64,000 nucleotides of DNA from NCBI RefSeq assembly GCF_009914755.1, contig NC_060926.1; one strand, given 5' to 3'. The notes below the pieces were generated by a model that ran no database searches, had not been told where the DNA came from, and saw only the letters and a list, made by a program, of their open reading frames with translations. Both the position numbers and the translations under genes were made by a program. Shown one piece after another: positions 10,777-64,000 of this stretch; the stretch's first letter is position 1; each line of letters starts with the position of its first letter. Origin of the DNA: the human T2T-CHM13v2.0 reference genome, Homo sapiens.

Positions 10777-11266
10777 GTGAGCGCGGCGGGCGTGGCGTCC
10801 GTGCCGGGGTGCCCGGGGTGCCACGGGAACGGCGAGGCCGGGGACACGCGCGCAGGACGCCAGCGGCGGAGGTGGGCGGCCCCGGGCCGGGGCGGGGAGG
10901 GCCGGGTCCTGGCAGTCGCCGTGGGGGACGCGCTGGGCTGTGCCCTCCGCCCCCGCCGCCCACGCACTCGTCTTCGAGGGCGGGCCCGGCGGCCCCGGAG
11001 CAAACCGCCGTCTCCCCGCGGCCCCACCGGTCCCTGGCAGCCTCGGGGAATGTCTGTAGCTGAATTCGGGCTCTGAAAGAAGGTGGCGCTGGGTTTTTAA
11101 AGATTTGGGGCACAAAAAACGAGAGCGGACCCGGCGCCGGCTACGGCCCTTCCCGAGGGCCACGCCCAGCCCGGCGCCCCGCGCGCCCCGTTCCCCGCGC
11201 CGCCTCCCTCCACCCGGCTGAGCGCTTGTGCCCGCAGGTGCGGCGCCCCCCACCCGCGTCGCCGCC

Positions 11267-11486
11267 ATGGAGGTGCTGCGGCGCTCCTCGGTCTTCGCCG
11301 CCGAGATCATGGACGCCTTTGACCGCTCGCCCACAGACAAGGAGCTGGTGGCCCAGGCCAAGGCGCTGGGCCGGGAGTACGTGCACGCGCGGCTGCTGCG
11401 CGCCGGCCTCTCCTGGAGCGCGCCCGAGCGTGCCGCGCCGGTCCCGGGACGCCTGGCTGAGGTGTGCGCGGTGCTGCTGCGCCTGG
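11267..11486 (+). CDS. BOK: BOK coding exon 2 (MEVLRRSSVFAAEIMD...VLLRL; BH4 region and first part of BH3)
   Basis: Perfect Kozak gccgccATGG; translation matches BCL-2-related ovarian killer; donor G|GTGAGT at 11486/11487; 220 nt. Confidence 0.98.
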
Positions 11487-13176: not shown

Positions 13177-13584
13177 AGCCCAGGTGGGAGCGTGGCAGTG
13201 AGGGTGGCCCAGGACAGCGGCCCAGCCAGCCCAGGTGGGAGCGTGGCAGTGCGGGTGGCCCAGGACAGGGGCCCAGCCAGCCCAGGTGGGAGCGTGGCAG
13301 TGCGGGTGGCCCAGGACAGCGGCCCAGCCAGCCCAGGTGGGAGCGTGGCAGTGCGGGTGGCCCAGGACAGGGGCCCAGCCAGCCCAGGTGGGAGCGTGGC
13401 AGTGCGGGTGGCCCAGGACAGCGGCCCAGCCAGCCCAGGTGGGAGCGTGGCAGTGCGGGTGGCCCAGGACAGGGGCCCAGCCAGCCCAGGTGGGAGCGTG
13501 GCAGTGCGGGTGGCCCAGGACAGCGGCCCAGCCAGCCCAGGTGGGAGCGTGGCAGTGCGGGTGGCCCAGGACAGCGGCTCAGCC
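13177..13584. repeat. 51-bp minisatellite, 8 copies, BOK intron 2
   Basis: Unit agcccaggtgggagcgtggcagtgcgggtggcccaggacag(c/g)ggcccagcc, with alternating c/g variants. Confidence 0.97.
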
Positions 13585-14130: not shown

Positions 14131-14259
14131 GCGATGAGCTGGAGATGATCCGGCCCAGCGTCTACCGCAACGTGGCGCGTCAGCTGCACATCTCCCTGCA
14201 GTCTGAGCCTGTGGTGACCGATGCGTTCCTGGCCGTGGCTGGCCACATCTTCTCTGCAG
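14131..14259 (+). CDS. BOK: BOK coding exon 3 (GDELEMIRPSVYRNVARQLH...HIFSA)
   Basis: Acceptor cacacag|GC and donor G|GTATGC; 129 nt; completes the BH3 motif LLRLGDELE across the junction. Confidence 0.98.
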
Positions 14260-18924: not shown

Positions 18925-21214
<2,290 letters not shown>

Positions 21215-21909
21215 GTAAAAGCTTTTAATGCAACAGATTACATTTTGTTTTAATTTGCCTTTCTTTGGTTATTAATGAAGGTAAACATTTTTCGTGTCTC
21301 TTATTATAATTTTCTTTTGTGAATCAGCTGTTCCAGTTCTGTGCTCATAGTTCTTTTTTGAAAGCCTCTCTTTTCTCGCTCGTGTATAAGACGTCTTTCC
21401 GTGTTGAGGCGTCGTGTCCTGCCTTTTATTCTTTCCCCTGCTGTCACCATCTTTCGTCCTCTCTTTCAAGGCTGCTCCCATCTCAGTTCAGCCTCAGCAG
21501 GTTAGGGGTCTGGGGAAGGCAGTTTCTCTGCGGGCCTCAGCTTCTTTATGTGTAAAATGTGGACGCCAGGCCTGTTGTGGGAACAGGCAGCCCAGGGGTG
21601 CCACCCGTGAGGTCACTGGCTGCTCACTCCATCTGCTGCTGCCCTCAGTTCCCTCGCCTCACCCCACGTTGTCCCTGCGGCCTCCTGCACAGACGTGGGC
21701 TGGGCAGGTGTGCAGTGGAGGCCGAGAAACCTGCCTGCCCAAGAACTACCTGACAGGCATCCTGTCAGGGAGCGGTCCCCCCTTGGGACGGTCCCTGGTC
21801 ATTAGCTGGACGGCAAGCAGGACAGCGGCTCAGAGAGGCCCAGCCCCTTCCTTAAGTGCTCCCGTGGGCGGGATTCAAGTCCTGATCTTGACCATCTCTC
21901 TCCCTGCAG

Positions 21910-22073
21910 GCATCACGTGGGGCAAGGTGGTGTCCCTGTATGCGGTGGCCGCGGGGCTGGCCGTGGACTGTGTGAGGCAGGCCCAGCCTGCCATGGTCCA
22001 CGCCCTCGTGGACTGCCTGGGGGAGTTCGTGCGCAAGACCCTGGCAACCTGGCTGCGGAGACGCGGCGGATGG
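21910..22073 (+). CDS. BOK: BOK coding exon 4 (GITWGKVVSL...WLRRRGGW; BH1 and BH2)
   Basis: Acceptor tctctctccctgcag|GC and donor TGG|GTGAGC; 164 nt; TWGK BH1 variant and WLRRRGGW BH2. Confidence 0.98.
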
Positions 22074-22915
22074 GTGAGCGCCTGAGTGCCCGTGTGGGTG
22101 GGAGAGCTGGGGTGCGAGGGTGCAGAGGTACAGGAGGGAGTGGTGGATGGGTGAGCCTCTGAGCGCCTGGGGGGTGGGAGAGCTGGGGTGCGAGGGTACA
22201 GACGTACGGGAGGGAGTGGCGGATGGGTGAGTGAGCGCCTGTGGGGGTGGGAGAGCTGGGGTGCGAGGGTGCAGAGGTACAGGAGGGAGTGGTGGATGGG
22301 TGAGCCTCTGAGCGCCTGGGGGGTGGGAGAGCTGGGGTGCGAGGGTACAGACGTACGGGAGGGAGTGGCGGATGGGTGAGTGTCTGAGCGCCTGTGGGGG
22401 TGGGAGAGCTGGGGTGCGAGGGTGCAGAGGTACAGGAGGGAGTGGTGGATGGGTGAGCCTCTGAGCGCCTGGGGGGTGGGAGAGCTGGGGTGCGAGGGTA
22501 CAGACGTACGGGAGGGAGTGGCGGATGGGTGAGTGTCTGAGCGCCTGTGGGGGTGGGAGAGCTGGGGTGCGAGGGTGCAGAGGTACAGGAGGGAGTGGTG
22601 GATGGGTGAGCCTCTGAGCGCCTGGGGGGTGGGAGAGCTGGGGTGCGAGGGTACAGACGTACGGGAGGGAGTGGCGGATGGGTGAGTGTCTGAGCGCCTG
22701 TGGGGGTGGGAGAGCTGGGGTGCGAGGGTGCAGAGGTACAGGAGGGAGTGGCGGATGGGTGAGTGTCTGAGCGCCTGTGGGGGTGGGAGAGCTGGGGTGC
22801 GAGGGTGCAGAGGTACGGGAGGGAGTGGCGGATGGGTGAGTGTCTGAGCGCCTGTGGGGGTGGGAGAGCTGGGGTGCGAGGGTGCAGAGGTACGGGAGGG
22901 AGTGGCGGATGGGTG
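22064..22915. repeat. About 76-77-bp G-rich minisatellite, 11 units (A/B dimer of 153 bp), starting at the exon-4 donor
   Basis: Unit ggatgggtgag(cctc/tgtc)tgagcgcctg..gggtgggagagctggggtgcgagggt(g/a)caga(g/c)gtac(a/g)ggagggagtgg(t/c). Confidence 0.96.
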
Positions 22916-24155
22916 GTCACCTGAGCACTCCTGGGGGAGATGGGTGAGGCAGGGGGTGGGGCAAGGGCCGAGACCTACAGGCAGGCCCTGGACTCTCCTC
23001 TGCCCAGATCCAGCACTGACTTACCCCCGATCCTACCCCTGTGCTAAGGACCCGCTGCCCCAGCCCCCGCCCTCCCGAGTGGGAAAAGCAAGGCCCCGAG
23101 GGGTGGGTGTCAGAGCCAAACCCTTCCTCTGTCTCCACGCCCCCAACTTCCTGCCCTGCTCCGGCCAGACCGCAGTTGCCGCTGGGCCCTGGGTGTGGAG
23201 GGTGGCTCCCCTGCCGAGAGTCTAGCCTTCTTTCCTGTACAGCGGGTGTTGGCCTGGTGTGTAAATCAGCGGCCAGGGGTGACAGCGCTCAGACCCCTCT
23301 GCTGGGGCCTTAGCTTTAGCATCTCGAGAGATTGAGGTCACGTGGTCTGCGGGGGCTGTGGTCTCCTCTGAAGGCTGAATTGGGGGTGCAGAGGGCAATG
23401 TCCCAAGATGTCGCACATGGCTACAGGTGTCCCTCAGCACAGAAACCCCAAGACTTCCGTCCCCTCCTGTCTTCCTCCTGTGGAGTCTGGCATGGGGCTG
23501 GGCACTGTGTGCCCAGTGGGCGACGACACTTTGAGCAACGCCAAGGCCACAGGTCCAGGCTGCAGGGAAAAGCCTTCATGTATTAGCAGGAAGTGAAGGG
23601 AATAAGAGAATTGGACGTTCATTCACTTCCCCAGAAGGAACTTCAGAGTCCAGGGAGTCCGTGGGCTTCCGGAAACGCAGTCCCTGCTGTTGTTCCAGGC
23701 AGAGTCTGAATGAAGCTGGGTTTGCCCCTTCCTGGTAGCCCAGGCTCCAAGGCCCCACAGGAGGATGACGGCGGCATACCTGTAGCCCCTGGGGGGCAGC
23801 AGGCAGGTGGCCGAGGGGAGCTGGCACCCTGGTCTGGATGTCTGGAGCCCCAGCGAGGGCCATGAAGGCCTCTCTCCTGCTCGGCAGGGGCCCTCCGGCC
23901 GGCCTGCCTGGCTGCCATCTGTCCCCACCTCCCGTGCCTCCTGGCCCTTCACACTGTCTGAATGTGCACGGCATCGGGTCTGGTCTTGTGTTGGAGCCTT
24001 CAGTCCAGGCCACAGACCTCCTTCCCGAACAGTCTCCTGCATTCCCTTCATGCAATTTTGCTGATATTCTGGTGCACGGTGCTGGGGGGCCTGGCGGTGC
24101 TGGGGGCCTGGCGGTGCTGGCTCTGCTTTCTAACGGTCTCCCTCTTCCCTCCCAG

Positions 24156-24281
24156 ACTGATGTCCTCAAGTGTGTGGTCAGCACAGACCCTGGCCTCCGC
24201 TCCCACTGGCTGGTGGCTGCACTCTGCAGCTTCGGCCGCTTCCTGAAGGCTGCCTTCTTCGTGCTGCTGCCAGAGAGATGA
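24156..24281 (+). CDS. BOK: BOK coding exon 5 (TDVLKCVV...AAFFVLLPER*; C-terminal membrane anchor)
   Basis: Branch point ttctaAc (24133), pyrimidine tract and cccag| acceptor; TGA at 24279-24281. Exon sum 220+129+164+126 = 639 nt = 212 aa plus stop. Confidence 0.98.
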   Translation, partial: TDVLKCVVSTDPGLRSHWLVAALCSFGRFLKAAFFVLLPER

Positions 24282-24595
24282 GCTGCCCACCTGGCAGTGG
24301 CCGCAGCCTGGCCCTCTGGGCCCAACGCAGGAGGCCCTCAGCACCCGAACACATCTTCCTCCTCCCCACCCGAGCCTGGAGCACTCTAACCCTCGGAGAC
24401 CCCCTAAGCCCCGTTCCTCCGCAGACCCAGGCCCTCCGGAAGGGGTGAGTGGGGAGGGGCTTTCCTGAGCCTGGAGCTGGGCTTTGGGGCAGCCTGCGAC
24501 CCTCCCCGCTTGTGTCCCTTCTCCTGTGATCTCTGTGTTTTCCCTTTTCTTTCTGGGGCCAGGAAGTCAGGGTCAACTCCCAGGCCTCAGATGCA

Positions 24596-25270
24596 GGGGC
24601 CCAGAACACCTGCTCTCACCTGAGCCCCAGGTGAAGGGGCCCGGGAACACCTGCTCTCACCTGAGCCCCAGGTGAAGGGGCCCGGGAACACCTGCTCTCA
24701 CCTGAACCCCAGGTGAAGGGGCCCGGAACACCTGCTCTCACCTGAGCCCCAGGTGAAGGGGCCCGGAACACCTGCTCTCACCTGAGCCCCAGGTGAAGGG
24801 GCCCGGGAACACCTGCTCTCACCTGAGCCCCAGGTGAAGGGGCCCGGGAACACCTGCTCTCACCTGAACCCCAGGTGAAGGGGCCCAGAACACCTGCTCT
24901 CACCTGAGCCCCAGGTGAAGGGGCCCGGAACACCTGCTCTCACCTGAGCCCCAGGTGAAGGGGCCCGGGAACACCTGCTCTCACCTGAGCCCCTGGTGAA
25001 GGGGCCCGGAACACTTGCTCTCACCTGAGCCCCAGGTGAAGGGGCCCGGAACACCTGCTCTCACCTGAGCCCCAGGTGAAGGGGCCCGGAACACCTGCTC
25101 TCACCTGAGCCCCCGGTGAAGGGGCCCGGAACACTTGCTCTCACCTGAGCCCCAGGTGAAGGGGCCCGGAACACCTCCTCTCACCTGAGCCCCAGGTGAA
25201 GGGGCCCGGAACACCTCCTGTCACCTGAGCCCCAGGTGAAGGGGCCCGGGAACACCTCTCACCTGAACCC
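24596..25270. repeat. 40/41-bp minisatellite, 16 full units plus a partial, inside the BOK 3'UTR
   Basis: Unit cacctgctctcacctgagccccaggtgaaggggcccg(g)gaa starting at 24607, 24648, 24689 and so on to 25212. Confidence 0.97.
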
Positions 25271-25997
25271 GGGGGTCCCATCCCAGGAAGAAGGGCCATC
25301 TCAGGACATGAGTCCTCAGGGGCCCTGCACATTCAATCTGAAGGTGACCCTGGCCTGGCTGAAGCTGGAAGAGCTGTGGGGACTCAGCCTGTAAACAGAG
25401 CGTAAGGTTCACATGCTGGTTGCTTAATCCGTTTCTGGAGGAAGAGTATGACACCCACTTGTGATGGGGTCCTTGTGCGGTGGGGACCGGGGCCGGCGGG
25501 CTCCAGGCCAGCACACCTAACCCATGGATGTGGAACCTACGGCCGAGAAGGAATGTTGCATGAGTCGGATCCCAGTCCATTGTCAGTGGAGGGTGAGGGT
25601 GACCCCATCTGCTATTTTTGTGCTCATCCTCATACAACCATTTGGGGATGTGCCTATTAGGGCTCCGTAAGAACTCAGATGCCTGGGAAGCCCAGCCCCT
25701 CAGGTGCCCCCACACACAGCCTTCCCTTGACGCCTACATTTCTAGGCACATGTGAGGCATCTTTCCTGGAGCCCCGAGCCAGCCCTGTCCCTCCCCAGTG
25801 CAGCATGGCACTCAGGAGATACAGGCTGGACATGGGGCAGTCGTTCTGGGGAGGCCTGGCCTAGCAGCCACCCACCTGAGCCCTCCCGGCCAGGCTTCGT
25901 GCTGGGGTGGGCCATGTGCCAGGACAGGAGGGTCCCGGCGGAAAGCCAGCCCCGGACTCATCGTGACATTGAGATCCCACTGGAGGGTAGGGGTGGT

Positions 25998-26003
25998 AAT
26001 AAA
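25998..26003 (+). terminator. BOK: BOK polyadenylation signal AATAAA
   Basis: First AATAAA I found after the stop codon, followed by U/GU-rich sequence (ttgtcatttt, tgtgtgtgtgtt). Confidence 0.88.
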
Positions 26004-26144
26004 CTTCTCCAAACGATCGTTGTCATTTTAGACAGAATGTCACTGTGTGTGTGTTAAATAGCTTCTACCTATACACAACATGGTAAGAGGTGCGGAGGGT
26101 TTGCTTGAAAATAATTGAGGGTGGGGAGTGGCGAGAGGGTGGGG

Positions 26145-27810
<1,666 letters not shown>

Positions 27811-28661: not shown

Positions 28662-28885
28662 GGGAACAAACGCCAGGGTGCCCTGCGGCCCGGCTCTCCT
28701 CGGTTCCCCTGATCCATCCAGGGAACAAACGCCAGGGTGCCCTGCGGCCCGGCTCTCCTCGGTTCCCCTGATCCGCCCAGAGAACAAACGCCAGGGTGCC
28801 CTGCGGCCCGGCTCTCCTCAGTTCCCCTGATCCATCCAGGGAACAAATGCCAGGTGCCCTGAGGCCTGGCTCTCCTCAGTCCTCC
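28662..28885. repeat. 59-bp minisatellite, about 3.8 copies
   Basis: Unit gggaacaaacgccagggtgccctgcggcccggctctcctcggttcccctgatccatcca at 28662, 28721, 28780 and 28839. Confidence 0.93.
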
Positions 28886-31637: not shown

Positions 31638-32079
31638 GCTAACTCACGGTGAGCTAATCCACGGCGAGCTAACCCACGGCGAGCTAACCCACGGCGAGCT
31701 AACCCACCGCCAGCTAACCCACGGCGAGCTAACCCACGGCGAGCTAACCCACGGCCAGCTAACCCACGGCGAGCTAACCCACGGCCAGCTAACCCACGGC
31801 CAGCTAACCCACGGCCAGCTTACCCACGGCCAGCTAACCCACGGCGAGCTAACCCACGGCCAGCTTACCCACGGCGAGCTAACCCACGGCGAGCTAACCC
31901 ACGGCGAGCTAACCCACGGCGAGCTTACCCACGGCGAGCTAACCCACGGCGAGCTAACCCACGGCGAGCTTACCCACGGCGAGCTAACCCACGGCGAGCT
32001 AACCCACGGCGAGCTAATCCACGGCGAGCTAACCCACGGTGAGCTAATCCACGGCGAGCTAACCCACGGCGAGCTTACC
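31638..32079. repeat. 15-bp minisatellite, 29 units plus a partial
   Basis: Unit gctaacccacggc(g/c)a, embedded in an old L1-like segment. Confidence 0.97.
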
Positions 32080-41812: not shown

Positions 41813-44657
41813 CTGATGATAATGATGGGCACTAGGACACTCAGAGCTGCTCGGCTGACGATGATGGGCACTAGGACACTCAGAGCTGCTCGGCTGACGA
41901 TGACGGGCACTAGGACACGCAGAGCTGCTCGGCTGACGATGATGGGCACTAGGACACGCAGAGCTGCTCGGCTGACGATGATGGGCACTAGGACACTCAG
42001 AGCTGCTCGGCTGATGATAATGGGCACTAGGACACTCAGCTGCCCGGCTGATGATAATGGGCACTAGGACACACAGAGCTGCTCGGCTGATGATAATGGG
42101 CACTAGGACACTCAGAGCTGCTCGGCTGATGATAATGGGCACTAGGACACTCAGAGCTGCCCGGCTGATGATGAGGGGCACTAGGACACTCAGAGCTGCC
42201 CGGCTGATGATGATGGGCACTAGGACACTCAGAACTGCCCGGCTGATGATGAGGGGCACTAGGACACTCAGAGCTGCTCGGCTGATGATAATGGGCACTA
42301 GGACACGCAGAGCTGCTCGGCTGATGATAATGGGCACTAGGACACTCAGAGCTGCTCGGCTGATGATAATGGGCACTAGGACACACAGAGCTGCTCGGCT
42401 GATGATGGGCACTAGGACACTCAGAACTGCCCGGCTGATGATGAGGGGCACTAGGACACTCAGAGCTGCTCGGCTGATGATGATGGGCACTAGGACACGC
42501 AGAGCTGCCCGGCTGACGATGATGGGCACTAGGACACTCAGAGCTGCTCGGCTGATGATGATGGGCACTAGGACACACAGAACTGCTTGGCTGATGATCA
42601 TGGGCACTAGGACACTCAGAACTGCCCGGCTGATGATGAGGGGCACTAGGACACTCAGAGCTGCTCGGCTGATGATAATGGGCACTAGGACACGCAGAGC
42701 TGCCCGGCTGACGATAATGGGCACTAGGACACACAGAACTGCCCGGCTGACGATGATGGGCACTAGGACACACAGAACTGCCCGGCTGACGATGATGGGC
42801 ACTAGGACACACAGAGCTGCTCGGCTGACGATGATGGGCACTAGGACACTCAGAGCTGCTTGGCTGATGATGATGGGCACTAGGACACGCAGAGCTGCTC
42901 GGCTGATGATGATGGGCACTAGGACACTCAGAGCTGCTCGGCTGATGATCATGGGCACTAGGACACACAGAACTGCCCGGCTGATGATGAGGGGCACTAG
43001 GACACACAGAACTGCCCGGCTGATGATGAGGGGCACTAGGACACTCAGAAGTGCCCGGCTGATGATGAGGGGCACTAGGACACTCAGAAGTGCCCGGCTG
43101 ATGATGAGGGGCACTAGGACACTCAGAGCTGCCCGGGTGATGATAATGGGCACTAGGACACGCAGAGCTGCTCGGCTGATGATAATGGGCACTAGGACAC
43201 TCAGAGCTGCTCGGCTGATGATGATGGGCACTAGGACACACAGAGCTGCTCGGCTGATGATGATGGGCACTAGGACACTCAGAGCTGCCCGGCTGATGAT
43301 GATGGGCACTAGGACACTCAGAGCTGCCCGGCTGATGATGATGGGCACTAGGACACTCAGAGCTGCTCGGCTGATGATGATGGGCACTAGGACACTCAGA
43401 GCTGCTCGGCTGATGATGATGGGCACTAGGACACACAGAGCTGCTCGGCTGATGATGAGGGGCACTAGGACACACAGAACTGCCCGGCTGATGATGAGGG
43501 GCACTAGGACACTCAGAACTGCCCGGCTGATGATGAGGGGCACTAGGACACTCAGAGCTGCTCGGCTGACGATGATGGGCACTAGGACACACAGAGCTGC
43601 TCGGCTGACGATGATGGGCACTAGGACACACAGAGCTGCTCGGCTGACGATGATGGGCACTAGGACACTCAGAGCTGCTCGGCTGACGATGATGGGCACT
43701 AGGACACACAGAACTGCCCGGCTGACGATGATGGGCACTAGGACACACAGAACTGCCCGGCTGATGATGATGGGCACTAGGACACTCAGAGCTGCTCGGC
43801 TGATGATGATGGGCACTAGGACACTCAGAGCTGCTCGGCTGACGATGATGGGCACTCGGACACACAGAACTGCCCGGCTGACGATGATGGGCACTAGGAC
43901 ACTCAGAGCTGCTCGGCTGATGATGATGGGCACTAGGACACTCAGAGCTGCTCGGCTGATGATGATGGGCACTAGGACACACAGAGCTGCCCGGCTGACG
44001 ATGATGGGCACTAGGACACTCAGAGCTGCTCGGCTGATGATGATGGGCAGTAGGACACTCAGAGCTGCTCAGCTGATGATGATGGGCACTAGGACACACA
44101 GAACTGCTTGGCTGATGATCATGGGCACTAGGACACTCAGAACTGCCCGGCTGATGATGAGGGGCACTAGGACACTCAGAGCTGCCCGGCTGATGATAAT
44201 GGGCACTAGGACACGCAGAGCTGCTCGGCTGATGATAATGGGCACTAGGACACACAGAACTGCCCGGCTGACGATGATGGGCACTAGGACACTCAGAGCT
44301 GCTCGGCTGATGATAATGGGCACTAGGACACACAGAACTGCCCGGCTGACGATGATGGGCACTAGGACACTCAGAGCTGCTCGGCTGACAATAATGGGCA
44401 CTAGGACACACAGAACTGCCCGGCTGACGATGATGGGCACTAGGACACTCAGAGCTGCTCGGCTGATGATGATGGGCACTAGGACAGACAGAACTGCCAG
44501 GCTGACGATGATGGGCACTAGGACACTCAGAACTGCCCGGCTGACGATGATGGGCACTAGGACACTCAGAGCTGCTCGGCTGATGATGATGGGCACTAGG
44601 ACACTCAGAACTGCTCGGCTGATGATCATGGGCACTAGGACACTCAGAGCTGCTCGG
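41813..44657. repeat. 39-bp minisatellite, about 73 copies (2.85 kb), THAP4 last intron
   Basis: Unit gctgatgatgatgggcactaggacactcagagctgctcg with recurring variant positions. Confidence 0.98.
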
Positions 44658-58409: not shown

Positions 58410-58506
58410 CTGGACGGGAAGTTGGAGTTGAGAAGCCCAGGCACTGGCCTCCAAGATGGCGTGGGCTGCGTGGATGCCAGAACTGTCCAGGGTGCCCTCC
58501 AGGTGG

Positions 58507-58905
58507 CTGCTCCAGCCACACCCGCACACCTGTCTGCCCCTACCACCACCTTGCTCATTTTGGCTGTGTCTGTCTTACCTGCTGACCCTCCACTCCTGAA
58601 GACGGGCTGTTCCAGCCACGCCCACACACCTGCCCGCCCCCTCCACCACCTTGCTCATTTTGGCTGTGTCTGTCTTGCCTGCTGACCCTCAGCTCCTGAA
58701 GACGGGCTGTTCCAGCCACACCCGCACACCTGCCCGCCCCCTCCAGCGCCTTGCTCATTTTGGCTGTGTCTGTCTTACCTGCTGACCCTCAGCTCCTGAA
58801 GACGGGCTGTTCCAGCCACACCCGCACACCTGCCCGCCCCCTCCACCACCTTGCTCATTTTGGCTGTGTCTGTCTTGCCTGCTGACCCTCAGCTCCTGAA
58901 GACAG
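58507..58905. repeat. 100-bp tandem repeat, 4 copies
   Basis: ttgctcattttggctgtgtctgtctt(a/g)cctgctgaccctc recurs at 58551, 58651, 58751 and 58851. Confidence 0.95.
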
Positions 58906-62985: not shown

Positions 62986-63378
62986 ATCAGGACTGACCCC
63001 CGGCGTCTCCTCCAGGCCCGCGCAAGCAGAAGACGGACTGACGGGGACAGGATCAGGACTGACCCCCAGTGTCTCCTCCAGGCCCGCGCAAGCAGAAGAC
63101 GGACTGACGGGGACAGGATCGGACTGATGCCCAGTGTCTCCTCCAGGCCCGCGCAAGCAGAAGACGGACTGATGGGGACAGGATTGGACTGACCCCCAGT
63201 GTCTCCTCCAGGCCCGCGCAAGCAGAAGACGGCTGACGGGGACAGGATCAGGACTGACCCCCGGCGTCTCCTCCAGGCCCGCAAAAGCAGAAGACAGACT
63301 GATGGGGACGGGATCAGGACTGACCCCCAGTGTCTCCTCCAGGCCCGCGCAAGCAGAAGACGGACTGACGGGGACAGG
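62986..63378. repeat. 66-bp minisatellite, 6 copies
   Basis: Unit atcaggactgacccccagtgtctcctccaggcccgcgcaagcagaagacggactgacggggacagg. Confidence 0.95.
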
Positions 63379-64000
63379 AGTTCTTGGAACCATCGCAGCT
63401 TCTGAAATTACACAACCTTTGGATTATAAATTCCAGGAAGTCTGGGAAAAGAAGATCGGGGGAAAGGAAAGCAAAGGCTCTGGGGGTGGAGGAGACCACG
63501 TCCAAGAACAGCTTGGAACCAAGGAGGGCCGCACATGTGGCCTGGCCCAGTGGCCGAGCCCTGGGGCCCAGAGTGAGAACCGAGGGTGGAGAGCAGGTAA
63601 TGAGCACTCTGCCTGCTGGCTGCACAGGGCAAACATAGGTGACCTGAAGCAGGAGAGTGGGAGAGTCCGCTCCTTTTCCAGACTGGCCTGTGGTCTTTCA
63701 GTATTTCCTTTTTTGTTTTTCTTAAATGATGATTTAAAAATTTTTTATATCAGTATTTCCTCCTCAGACTCCCGGTGAAAAGTGGGAAGGTGAGGATGGG
63801 AATATTTGGACTTCAATAAAACTTTCCTAATTAGACAATAAGAGAATTTTTAAATCAAGATTTTCGTTGCAATCTTTCACGGAGATAAGGAATAGAAGCT
63901 TCTGAATCCAATGTGTGGCCTCTGGAACGAGGCTTGTGATCTATCATAGCTGATCAATTCTTTCATCATTCAACGTGCTGGACACTCTTCCAGGGAGAAG

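What the first reader, a model, noticed from the sequence alone, without database searches (positions are those of the whole stretch)
22064..22950. Minisatellite built from the BOK exon-4 5' splice site: 10 decoy donors, six closer to consensus than the real one
Seen: the array starts at the exon end (GGCGGATGG|GTGAGC) and every unit recopies it. GATGG|GTGAG has its GT at 22151, 22227, 22300, 22376, 22453, 22529, 22606, 22682, 22759 and 22836. Six copies (22227, 22376, 22529, 22682, 22759, 22836) read GTGAGT, matching the +6 T consensus that the native GTGAGC lacks. Reading past the native donor gives GTG AGC GCC TGA (stop at 22083-22085), 65 nt before the first decoy junction. Established: stops more than 50-55 nt upstream of the last junction usually trigger NMD, and intronic G-runs bind hnRNP H/F. 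Inference: repeat number may tune productive splicing against NMD, or against a BOK lacking its membrane anchor (...GGWVSA*), or act as a U1 sink.
Basis: partly seen in the sequence, partly recalled or inferred. Interest (0 to 1): 0.75.

Follow-up and report, generated by a model that had tools for sequence, protein, structure and literature searches.

The report
Minisatellite repeating a BOK splice donor
A variable-length repeat that starts nine bases inside a BOK exon copies that exon's splice donor ten times into the next intron; this layout is already known from several other human genes, where the extra donors stay almost entirely unused.

Summary
A tandem array at 22065-22915 (77 bp x 11.2, or 153 bp x 5.6) begins 9 nt inside BOK exon 4. 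It repeats GATGG|GTGAG ten times downstream of the native donor at 22074. Six copies read GTGAGT and four read GTGAGC. Read-through gives VSA* with the stop 65 nt before the first decoy junction. The unit occurs only at this locus in T2T-CHM13, 626 kb from the 2q end. A published table gives its length as 1076 +/- 285 bp over 16 assemblies, so it is a true VNTR.

The kind is known: minisatellites whose first monomer spans an exon-intron boundary (F7 IVS7, IFI6, CBS, LMNB2, PDGF, ABCA7 intron 18). In F7 minigenes, pseudo-sites with the same 9-mer as the BOK decoys (TGG/gtgagt) were never used. Changing monomer number from 1 to 12 changed nothing. In ABCA7 the first decoy is used at about 2%, independent of length. 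None of 8 RefSeq BOK transcripts uses a decoy.

Most likely this is a neutral subtelomeric G-rich VNTR with silent decoys that serve only as fallback cryptic donors. Length-tuned NMD is not excluded but is disfavoured. I found no paper describing the BOK case, so I file it as a new member of a known kind.

The parts
21910..22073 (+). BOK exon 4 (coding, 164 nt). Its last 9 nt, GGCGGATGG (22065-22073), are the first 9 nt of the repeat unit.
   Evidence: Hub gene table; the spliced CDS translates to an uninterrupted 212-aa BOK; TRF array starts at 22065.
22071..22079 (+). Native 5' splice site TGG|GTGAGC (GT at 22074). It is the weakest of the four annotated BOK donors by the rough matrix.
   Evidence: 2.94 bits against 4.39-5.87 for the donors at 10777, 11487 and 14260; matrix frequencies recalled.
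22083..22085 (+). In-frame TGA met on reading past the native donor (VSA*). It lies 65 nt before the first decoy junction.
22065..22915 (+). G-rich minisatellite: 77 bp x 11.2, with a higher-order 153-bp dimer x 5.6. It is 55.6% G on the sense strand and takes 842 of the 2082 nt of intron 4.
   Evidence: The unit is found only here in the assembly: all 6 matches lie in this array.
22148..22156 (+). Decoy 1, TGG|GTGAGC (GT 22151), the same 9-mer as the native site. The F7 precedent predicts this as the fallback donor if the native one is lost.
   Evidence: F7 precedent.
22224..22232 (+). Decoy 2, TGG|GTGAGT (GT 22227)
22297..22305 (+). Decoy 3, TGG|GTGAGC (GT 22300)
22373..22381 (+). Decoy 4, TGG|GTGAGT (GT 22376)
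22450..22458 (+). Decoy 5, TGG|GTGAGC (GT 22453)
22526..22534 (+). Decoy 6, TGG|GTGAGT (GT 22529)
22603..22611 (+). Decoy 7, TGG|GTGAGC (GT 22606)
22679..22687 (+). Decoy 8, TGG|GTGAGT (GT 22682)
22756..22764 (+). Decoy 9, TGG|GTGAGT (GT 22759)
22833..22841 (+). Decoy 10, TGG|GTGAGT (GT 22836)
22096..22882 (+). Eleven canonical G-quadruplex motifs (G3+ N1-7, four runs), one per unit, on the sense (non-template) strand. The array holds 73 runs of three or more G.
   Evidence: Six G-runs lie within +1..+85 of the native donor.
22916..22965 (+). Degenerate terminal copy of the unit, with GATGG|GTGAGG (GT 22944) and a twelfth G4 motif. I read it as an old, diverged array edge.
   Evidence: the reading as an old edge is inference.
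24156..24281 (+). Coding part of the last coding exon (transmembrane anchor). Its acceptor at 24156 is the only partner available to the native donor or to any decoy.
   Evidence: Hub gene table; translation.

Best explanation
This is a locus-specific, length-polymorphic, G-rich subtelomeric minisatellite. It arose by tandem duplication of a roughly 77-bp segment made of the last 9 nt of BOK exon 4 plus the first 68 nt or so of intron 4. It was later amplified mainly as a 153-bp dimer. Every unit therefore carries a copy of the donor.

In normal splicing the decoys are silent or nearly so, because the most upstream competent donor after exon 4 wins. The native site is transcribed first and is paired with the exon-4 acceptor across a 164-nt exon. 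Using a decoy would need an exon of 241 to 926 nt packed with G-runs. G-runs help a donor when they lie downstream of it and hinder when they lie inside the exon.

The decoys matter mainly as fallback cryptic donors. If the native GT is lost, the site at 22151 should take over and give an NMD-prone message ending in ...GGWVSA*. I expect unit number to have no or little effect on donor choice.

Shown here: the anatomy, the uniqueness of the unit, the polymorphism (from a published table), and the absence of decoy use in RefSeq. Inferred: silence of the decoys and its mechanism, by analogy with F7, ABCA7 and TP53.
For: Anatomy.

Locus and setting:
- All 6 matches of a 153-bp dimer in the whole assembly lie in this array.
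- The array is 625,837 bp from the end of chr2.
- Ten minisatellites cover 10.3% of the window, so arrays are common here.

Polymorphism: Lu et al. 2021, supplement file 2, row for chr2:241570278-241571056 (GRCh38). Reference length 778, assembly length 1075.8 +/- 284.7 over 16 assemblies.

F7 precedent (Borensztajn 2006, PMC1557585; abstract and sections 4, 6, 9, 10, 12 and 14 read):
- The first monomer spans the exon boundary, and only the most upstream site is used.
- Pseudo-sites raised to TGG/gtgagt (consensus value 91) are still not used.
- Constructs with 1-12 monomers give the same splice.
- Knocking out the native GT activates the next site.
- The introduction lists LMNB2 (100-bp monomer) and PDGF (81-bp monomer) as using only the authentic site.

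ABCA7 precedent (PMC5954066, passages): first decoy used at 2 +/- 1%, independent of length.

TP53 intron 6 (PMC12062376, passages): five G-runs in 85 nt keep a weak donor in use against a strong cryptic donor downstream. BOK has six G-runs in +1..+85.

Annotation: the hub table lists no exon-4 variant ending at a decoy among 8 RefSeq transcripts.

Competence of the decoy sequence: the 9-mer TGGGTGAGT is also the working donor of the BOK exon ending at 11486. The decoys are therefore unused because of their position, not because the sequence is defective.
Against: No RNA data could be consulted, and NMD targets are under-represented in RefSeq.

Precedents that show some decoy use:
- IFI6 and CBS do use the first two pseudo-sites.
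- F7 pseudo-sites made perfect (CAG/gtgagt) did compete.
- ABCA7 shows a measurable 2%.

Weak points in the mechanism:
- The native BOK donor is weaker than six of its decoys and is the weakest of the four annotated BOK donors by the rough matrix.
- G-triplet mutations had no effect in F7, so the G-run part of the mechanism is not general.
- Local folding gives no reason for the preference. The native 9-mer is predicted to be no more open (0.0016) than the decoys (0.007-0.018).

The 'eqtl False' entry in Lu 2021 is weak. The locus quality of 0.932 lies below their 0.96 filter, so it may not have been in the main test.
Confidence: 0.7

Rival explanations
1. The array is a functional G-run / G-quadruplex element. 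The G-runs bind hnRNP H/F and are needed to keep the weak native donor in use. Alternatively, the sense-strand G4 motifs and R-loops slow the polymerase or act as an enhancer. Either way, array length or motif make-up would set BOK splicing efficiency, intron-4 retention or transcription.
For: - The array holds 73 G-runs and 11 canonical G4 motifs on the sense strand.
- G-run density is 85.5 per kb, against 25.8 in the rest of intron 4 and 19.8 in the window.
- Six G-runs lie within 85 nt of a donor that is weak by the rough matrix.
- TP53 intron 6 shows exactly this dependence.
- A RefSeq 'enhancer' feature at 21841-22462 overlaps the first five units (hub table).
- CpG observed/expected is 0.68 in the array and 0.34 in the rest of the intron.
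- ABCA7 VNTR length lowers expression and alters splicing of the next exon.
Against: - F7 G-triplet mutants and monomer deletions had no effect.
- Only the G-runs of unit 1 lie within reach of the native donor, so extra units add little.
- The locus is not flagged as an eQTL in Lu 2021 (with the quality caveat).
- The lead BOK eVNTR and eMotif loci of Lu 2023 are three other arrays. [quoted passage not shown] - BOK has no exon downstream of intron 4 that could be skipped.
Confidence: 0.15
2. The stronger GTGAGT decoys are used at an appreciable rate and give messages with a premature stop that NMD destroys. Unit number then tunes productive BOK output, or the amount of anchor-less BOK made from retained intron.
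For: - Six decoys outscore the native site, and the decoy 9-mer is a working donor elsewhere in BOK.
- The stop lies 65 nt or more before every decoy junction.
- IFI6, CBS and ABCA7 show real use of proximal decoys.
- Allele length varies widely, 1076 +/- 285 bp.
Against: - F7: the same 9-mer downstream was not used, and monomer number was without effect.
- ABCA7: decoy use is about 2% and independent of length.
- In the known cases only the first one or two decoys are used. Here the first decoy is no stronger than the native site, and the first GTGAGT lies 153 nt away.
- The genes with long monomers (PDGF 81 bp, LMNB2 100 bp) use only the authentic site.
- None of 8 RefSeq transcripts uses a decoy (hub table).
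- No eQTL flag (weak).
Confidence: 0.1
3. The decoys act as a U1 snRNP sink, or as U1 landing sites that protect the intron from premature cleavage and polyadenylation.
For: Ten to eleven U1-complementary sites lie within 850 nt.
Against: - Intron 4 contains no AATAAA or ATTAAA to be masked.
- Ten sites in one modestly expressed gene cannot deplete U1, which is among the most abundant nuclear RNAs (recalled knowledge).
- The array lacks any acceptor-like pyrimidine tract, so it cannot form decoy exons: C 12.8% and T 16.2%.
Confidence: 0.02

Closest known systems
F7 intron 7 (IVS7) 37-bp VNTR (Borensztajn et al. 2006, PLoS Genet, PMC1557585)
   Same: The first monomer spans the exon-intron boundary (4 exonic nt in F7, 9 here). 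The donor TGG/gtg... is repeated in each monomer. The array is polymorphic in copy number. The pseudo-sites are competent but silent. G triplets occur in each monomer. The mutant pseudo-site tested there, TGG/gtgagt (consensus value 91), is letter for letter the BOK GTGAGT decoy.
   Different: The F7 pseudo-sites are identical to the native site, while six of the ten in BOK are naturally stronger. The BOK unit is twice as long (77 against 37 bp) and has a 153-bp higher order. BOK has 10 decoys in this assembly, against 4-8 in F7. BOK splicing has not been tested.
ABCA7 intron 18 25-bp VNTR (De Roeck et al. 2018, PMC5954066)
   Same: The VNTR abuts the exon and includes its donor. Each unit carries GTGAGC (T2T copy: L009 603-2869, 25 bp x 88.6). 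Use of the first decoy causes a frameshift and a premature stop. The locus is subtelomeric, at 1.01 Mb on chr19.
   Different: The ABCA7 unit is C-rich and the BOK unit is G-rich. The ABCA7 array begins at the GT itself. Its length effect acts on skipping of the next exon and on expression, whereas BOK has no internal exon downstream. Decoy use was measured in ABCA7 (2 +/- 1%, independent of length) and has not been measured in BOK.
IFI6 (6-16) intron 2, CBS intron 13, LMNB2 and PDGF intron 4 minisatellites (as listed in the introduction of PMC1557585)
   Same: All are minisatellites whose first monomer spans a donor. PDGF (81-bp monomer, 16-18 copies) and LMNB2 (100-bp monomer, 10-15 copies) are closest to BOK in unit size, and both use only the authentic site.
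   Different: IFI6 and CBS use the two nearest pseudo-sites as well. I did not read the primary papers for these four genes.
TP53 exon 6 / intron 6: a weak donor kept in use by intronic G-runs against a strong cryptic donor (PMC12062376)
   Same: A weak native donor is followed by five or six G-runs within 85 nt, with a stronger donor downstream.
   Different: TP53 has one cryptic site and no tandem array. The dependence on G-runs is shown there and only inferred here.

Membership tests
Boundary-spanning intronic minisatellites with repeated 5' splice sites (F7 IVS7 type) | Tandem array whose first monomer spans the exon-intron boundary | tested here: met
   The array starts at 22065 and the exon ends at 22073, so 9 exonic nt belong to the unit.
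Boundary-spanning intronic minisatellites with repeated 5' splice sites (F7 IVS7 type) | The donor sequence recurs in the following monomers (pseudo-sites) | tested here: met
   10 of 10 downstream units carry GATGG|GTGAG. Four are identical to the native 9-mer and six have +6 T.
Boundary-spanning intronic minisatellites with repeated 5' splice sites (F7 IVS7 type) | Copy number is polymorphic in the population (a true VNTR) | tested here: met
   This rests on a published table, not on the sequence. Lu 2021, supplement file 2: chr2:241570278-241571056, reference 778 bp, assemblies 1075.8 +/- 284.7 bp, n = 16.
Boundary-spanning intronic minisatellites with repeated 5' splice sites (F7 IVS7 type) | Pseudo-sites silent, or only the nearest one or two used, in vivo | tested here: inconclusive
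   None of the 8 RefSeq transcripts in the hub table ends exon 4 at a decoy. No RNA-seq junction data were available, and NMD targets are under-annotated.
Boundary-spanning intronic minisatellites with repeated 5' splice sites (F7 IVS7 type) | Locus-specific unit, not a dispersed repeat family | tested here: met
   All 6 matches of a 153-bp dimer in the 3.1-Gb assembly lie within the array. The tool warns that repeat counts are lower bounds.
G-run (hnRNP H/F) intronic splicing enhancer downstream of a weak donor (TP53 intron 6 type) | Several G-runs within about 85 nt downstream of a weak donor | tested here: met
   Six runs of three or more G lie in +1..+85. The native donor scores lowest of the four annotated BOK donors by the rough recalled matrix.
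G-run (hnRNP H/F) intronic splicing enhancer downstream of a weak donor (TP53 intron 6 type) | Donor use depends on the G-runs or on hnRNP H/F | not testable with these tools
   This needs minigene mutagenesis or a knock-down.
Alternative splicing coupled to NMD (poison 5' splice site) | A premature stop more than 50-55 nt upstream of the last exon junction in the alternative isoform | tested here: met
   The stop is at 22083-22085 and the nearest decoy junction at 22150, 65 nt away.
Alternative splicing coupled to NMD (poison 5' splice site) | The alternative site is used at a regulated, appreciable level | tested here: inconclusive
   No decoy-using transcript appears among the 8 RefSeq models (hub table). 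No paper on it was found in the searches.

The most novel reading that the evidence does not exclude
The BOK array is a natural, polymorphic version of the F7 'stronger pseudo-site' experiment in which the upstream-site rule leaks. When hnRNP H/F or U1 availability changes, or on long alleles, the GTGAGT decoys capture a share of transcripts and send them to NMD. A subtelomeric VNTR varying by about 285 bp (1 s.d.) between haplotypes would then set each person's dose of a pro-apoptotic BCL2-family effector.
Probability: 0.1. Interest if true: 0.6.

Novelty: new member of a known kind. Interest (0 to 1): 0.3.

Why it matters
- For splicing research, BOK offers a natural test of the rule that the most upstream donor wins. 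The spacing is long (77 nt), the downstream sites are stronger than the native one, and allele length varies between people.
- For variant interpretation, loss of the native BOK donor should activate the decoy at 22151 and give a null-like allele.
- The last 9 nt of exon 4 and the start of the intron are repeated, so short reads and splice predictors may misplace variants and junctions here.
- If the decoys leak, a common VNTR would modulate an apoptosis effector. As it stands, the finding is an ordinary member of a described class.

Tried and rejected
**Literature on the BOK array**
- Four full-text searches found no paper on it: 'BOK' + 'VNTR' (29 papers, the 20 listed are on other subjects, several being Korean veterinary papers); BOK + NMD / intron retention; BOK + tandem repeat; BOK + sQTL / 2q37.3.
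- The one sQTL hit I opened matched an author named Bok.
- The BOK circRNA nanopore paper (PMC10609399; passages and section 5) mentions 'extended exons' only in single-exon circRNAs and does not say which exons.

**Supplement searches for BOK**
- Hamanaka 2023 splicing-TR catalogue: none (file 1 not searched).
- Bakhtiari 2021: none (file 1 unreadable).
- Cell Genomics 2024: none (file 4 unread).
- Lu 2023: BOK eVNTR and eMotif leads lie at three other arrays, and there is no row for this locus.
- Sulovari 2019 is not held, so whether the array is human-specific stays open.

**Sequence checks**
- No PRDM9 13-mer lies in the array. The window has 12 matches, all elsewhere (the motif was recalled).
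- Local folding does not mask the decoys or expose the native site.
- No Rfam family matches 20000-26500.
- No ATG ORF of 60 aa or more overlaps 22000-23000 on either strand.

**Not available**
- MaxEntScan, SpliceAI, RNA-seq junctions and non-human mammalian genomes were not available.
- GRCh38 and T2T BOK spans differ by 85 bp. Forty of these are one 3'UTR unit. The remaining 45 is not a multiple of the 73-77-bp unit, which says little about copy number in GRCh38.
Full report
**What is there**

The sequence and Tandem Repeats Finder (whole window) show one array at 22065-22915. It reads as 77 bp x 11.2 copies (91% matches, score 1436), or better as a 153-bp dimer x 5.6 copies (97%, score 1519).

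BOK exon 4 ends at 22073 (hub table), so the unit begins with the last 9 exonic bases, GGCGGATGG. A script places GATGG|GTGAG with its GT at these positions:
- The native donor at 22074.
- Ten further positions: 22151, 22227, 22300, 22376, 22453, 22529, 22606, 22682, 22759 and 22836.
- One degenerate copy (GTGAGG) at 22944, just past the array.

Six of the ten decoys read GTGAGT. Four read GTGAGC, as the native site does. Units 2, 4, 6 and 8 are identical, and so are units 5 and 7. This is the alternating pattern behind the 153-bp period.

The coding sequence up to 22073 is 513 nt, so the intron is phase 0. Reading on gives VSA and a TGA at 22083-22085, 65 nt before the first decoy junction. 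Every statement of fact in the finding is confirmed.

**Strength of the sites**

MaxEntScan was not available. I used a rough log-odds matrix whose frequencies I recalled from memory.
- The native TGG|GTGAGC scores 2.94 bits. This is the lowest of the four annotated BOK donors; the others score 4.39-5.87.
- The six GTGAGT decoys score 4.43 bits each. They are the only ones of the 174 GT dinucleotides in exon 4 plus intron 4 that reach 4 bits.
- The decoy 9-mer TGGGTGAGT is also the working donor of the BOK exon ending at 11486.
- The F7 paper gives this same 9-mer a Shapiro-Senapathy consensus value of 91, against a mean of 82.96 +/- 6 for authentic sites.

**Composition**

- The sense strand is 55.6% G, with 73 runs of three or more G. 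There is one canonical G-quadruplex motif per unit: 11 in the array and one more in the degenerate tail.
- G-run density is 85.5 per kb in the array, 25.8 in the rest of intron 4 and 19.8 in the window. Six G-runs lie within 85 nt downstream of the native donor.
- The array takes 842 of the 2082 nt of intron 4. The intron holds no AATAAA or ATTAAA. CpG observed/expected is 0.68 in the array and 0.34 in the rest of the intron.
- Local folding predicts the native 9-mer to be no more open (0.0016) than the decoys (0.007-0.018).
- Nothing else is encoded there. No Rfam family matches, and no ATG ORF of 60 aa or more lies on either strand.

**Setting**

- A 153-bp dimer finds only this array in the whole assembly: 6 of 6 matches. 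The tool warns that repeat counts are lower bounds.
- The array lies 625,837 bp from the end of chr2.
- Ten minisatellites cover 10.3% of the window. Three of them are in BOK: intron 2, intron 4 and the 3'UTR.
- The array is a true VNTR. Supplement file 2 of Lu et al. 2021 lists chr2:241570278-241571056 (GRCh38), with reference length 778 bp and assembly length 1075.8 +/- 284.7 bp over 16 assemblies. Quality is 0.932, Vst is 0.0008 and eqtl is False.
- The quality value lies below that paper's 0.96 filter. The eQTL flag therefore carries little weight.

**What is known**

This layout is a described class. Borensztajn et al. 2006 (PMC1557585; abstract and sections 4, 6, 9, 10, 12 and 14 read) studied the F7 intron-7 VNTR of 37-bp monomers. 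Its first monomer spans the exon boundary, and its donor TGG/gtgggt is followed by 4-8 identical pseudo-sites. Their findings:
- Only the most upstream site is used.
- Knocking out the native GT activates the next site, with growing exon skipping as more sites are lost.
- Pseudo-sites raised to TGG/gtgagt are still not used. Only a perfect CAG/gtgagt competes.
- Constructs with 1 to 12 monomers splice alike, and G-triplet mutants change nothing.

Their introduction lists further cases:
- IFI6 intron 2 and CBS intron 13, where the two nearest pseudo-sites are also used.
- LMNB2 (100-bp monomer) and PDGF intron 4 (81-bp monomer), where only the authentic site is used.

ABCA7 intron 18 is a later case (De Roeck 2018, PMC5954066, passages).
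- The VNTR includes the exon-18 donor.
- The first decoy is used at 2 +/- 1%, independent of length.
- Length raises skipping of the next exon and lowers expression.
- I located it in this assembly with the paper's primer. It is 25 bp x 88.6 copies, C-rich, with GTGAGC in each unit.

A separate precedent bears on the G-runs. In TP53 intron 6, five G-runs within 85 nt keep a weak donor in use against a strong cryptic donor. Deleting four or more of them hands splicing to the cryptic site (PMC12062376, passages).

**Most likely explanation (about 0.7)**

The array is a neutral subtelomeric minisatellite that happened to start 9 nt inside the exon. The decoys are competent but are passed over because the first donor after exon 4 is chosen. 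The G-runs of unit 1 possibly help. The exon size that any decoy would need (241-926 nt) counts against them.

They would act as fallback donors if the native site were lost, and the resulting message would be NMD-prone. None of the 8 RefSeq transcripts in the hub table ends exon 4 at a decoy.

**Rivals**

- A functional G-run / G4 element with length-dependent effects on BOK (0.15).
  - For: the composition, the overlapping RefSeq enhancer feature and the ABCA7 length effect.
  - Against: the F7 deletion and G-triplet results, and the lack of any BOK signal at this locus in the VNTR-eQTL tables I could search. Several of those files were unread, as listed under Tried and rejected.
  - For: decoy strength and the leaky cases IFI6, CBS and ABCA7.
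  - Against: F7 and the length-independence seen in ABCA7.
- A U1 sink or U1 protection of the intron (0.02).

**Novelty and limits**

I found no paper describing the BOK array in the searches. The array is catalogued without comment in one VNTR table. I therefore file it as a new member of a known kind.

What remains open:
- Actual decoy use in RNA.
- Any effect of allele length.
- The age of the array in primates.

None of these could be tested here.

Noticed in passing
window 24584-25257, with 25036-25075: A second BOK minisatellite lies in the 3'UTR, 40 bp x 16.7 copies. The 40-nt RefSeq 'intron' at 25036-25075 is exactly one repeat unit, running GT...AG. It is almost certainly an alignment gap, because this assembly carries one unit more than the reference mRNA, and not a real intron. 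The array also carries 14 copies of the donor-like CAG|GTGAAG inside the terminal exon. These score 3.48 bits on the rough matrix, above the native exon-4 donor.
   Followed up: partly
window 28662-28877: A 59-bp x 3.7 array lies just downstream of BOK. By coordinate arithmetic and by eye (reverse complement) it matches the lead 'eMotif' VNTR for BOK expression in whole blood in Lu et al. 2023 (chr2:241576761-241576976, p = 3.8e-39). If a VNTR does affect BOK expression, published data point to this one rather than to the intron-4 array.
   Followed up: partly
window 13177-13584: A third BOK minisatellite of 51 bp x 8.0 copies (97% matches) lies in the intron between the exons ending at 11486 and starting at 14131.
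   Followed up: no
window 41817-44657: A large minisatellite of 39 bp x 73 copies (2.8 kb, 93% matches) lies inside a THAP4 intron.
   Followed up: no
window 31638-32079, 58505-58903, 62986-63379: Three further minisatellites: 15 bp x 29.5, 100 bp x 4.0 and 65 bp x 6.0. Together with the others they bring array coverage to 10.3% of the window, which fits a position 0.6 Mb from the chromosome end.
   Followed up: no
L009 603-2869 (G000:C19:1012102-1014368): In this assembly the ABCA7 intron-18 VNTR has 88.6 copies of its 25-bp unit (2267 bp). The paper reports 23.7 copies (592 bp) for hg19.
   Followed up: partly
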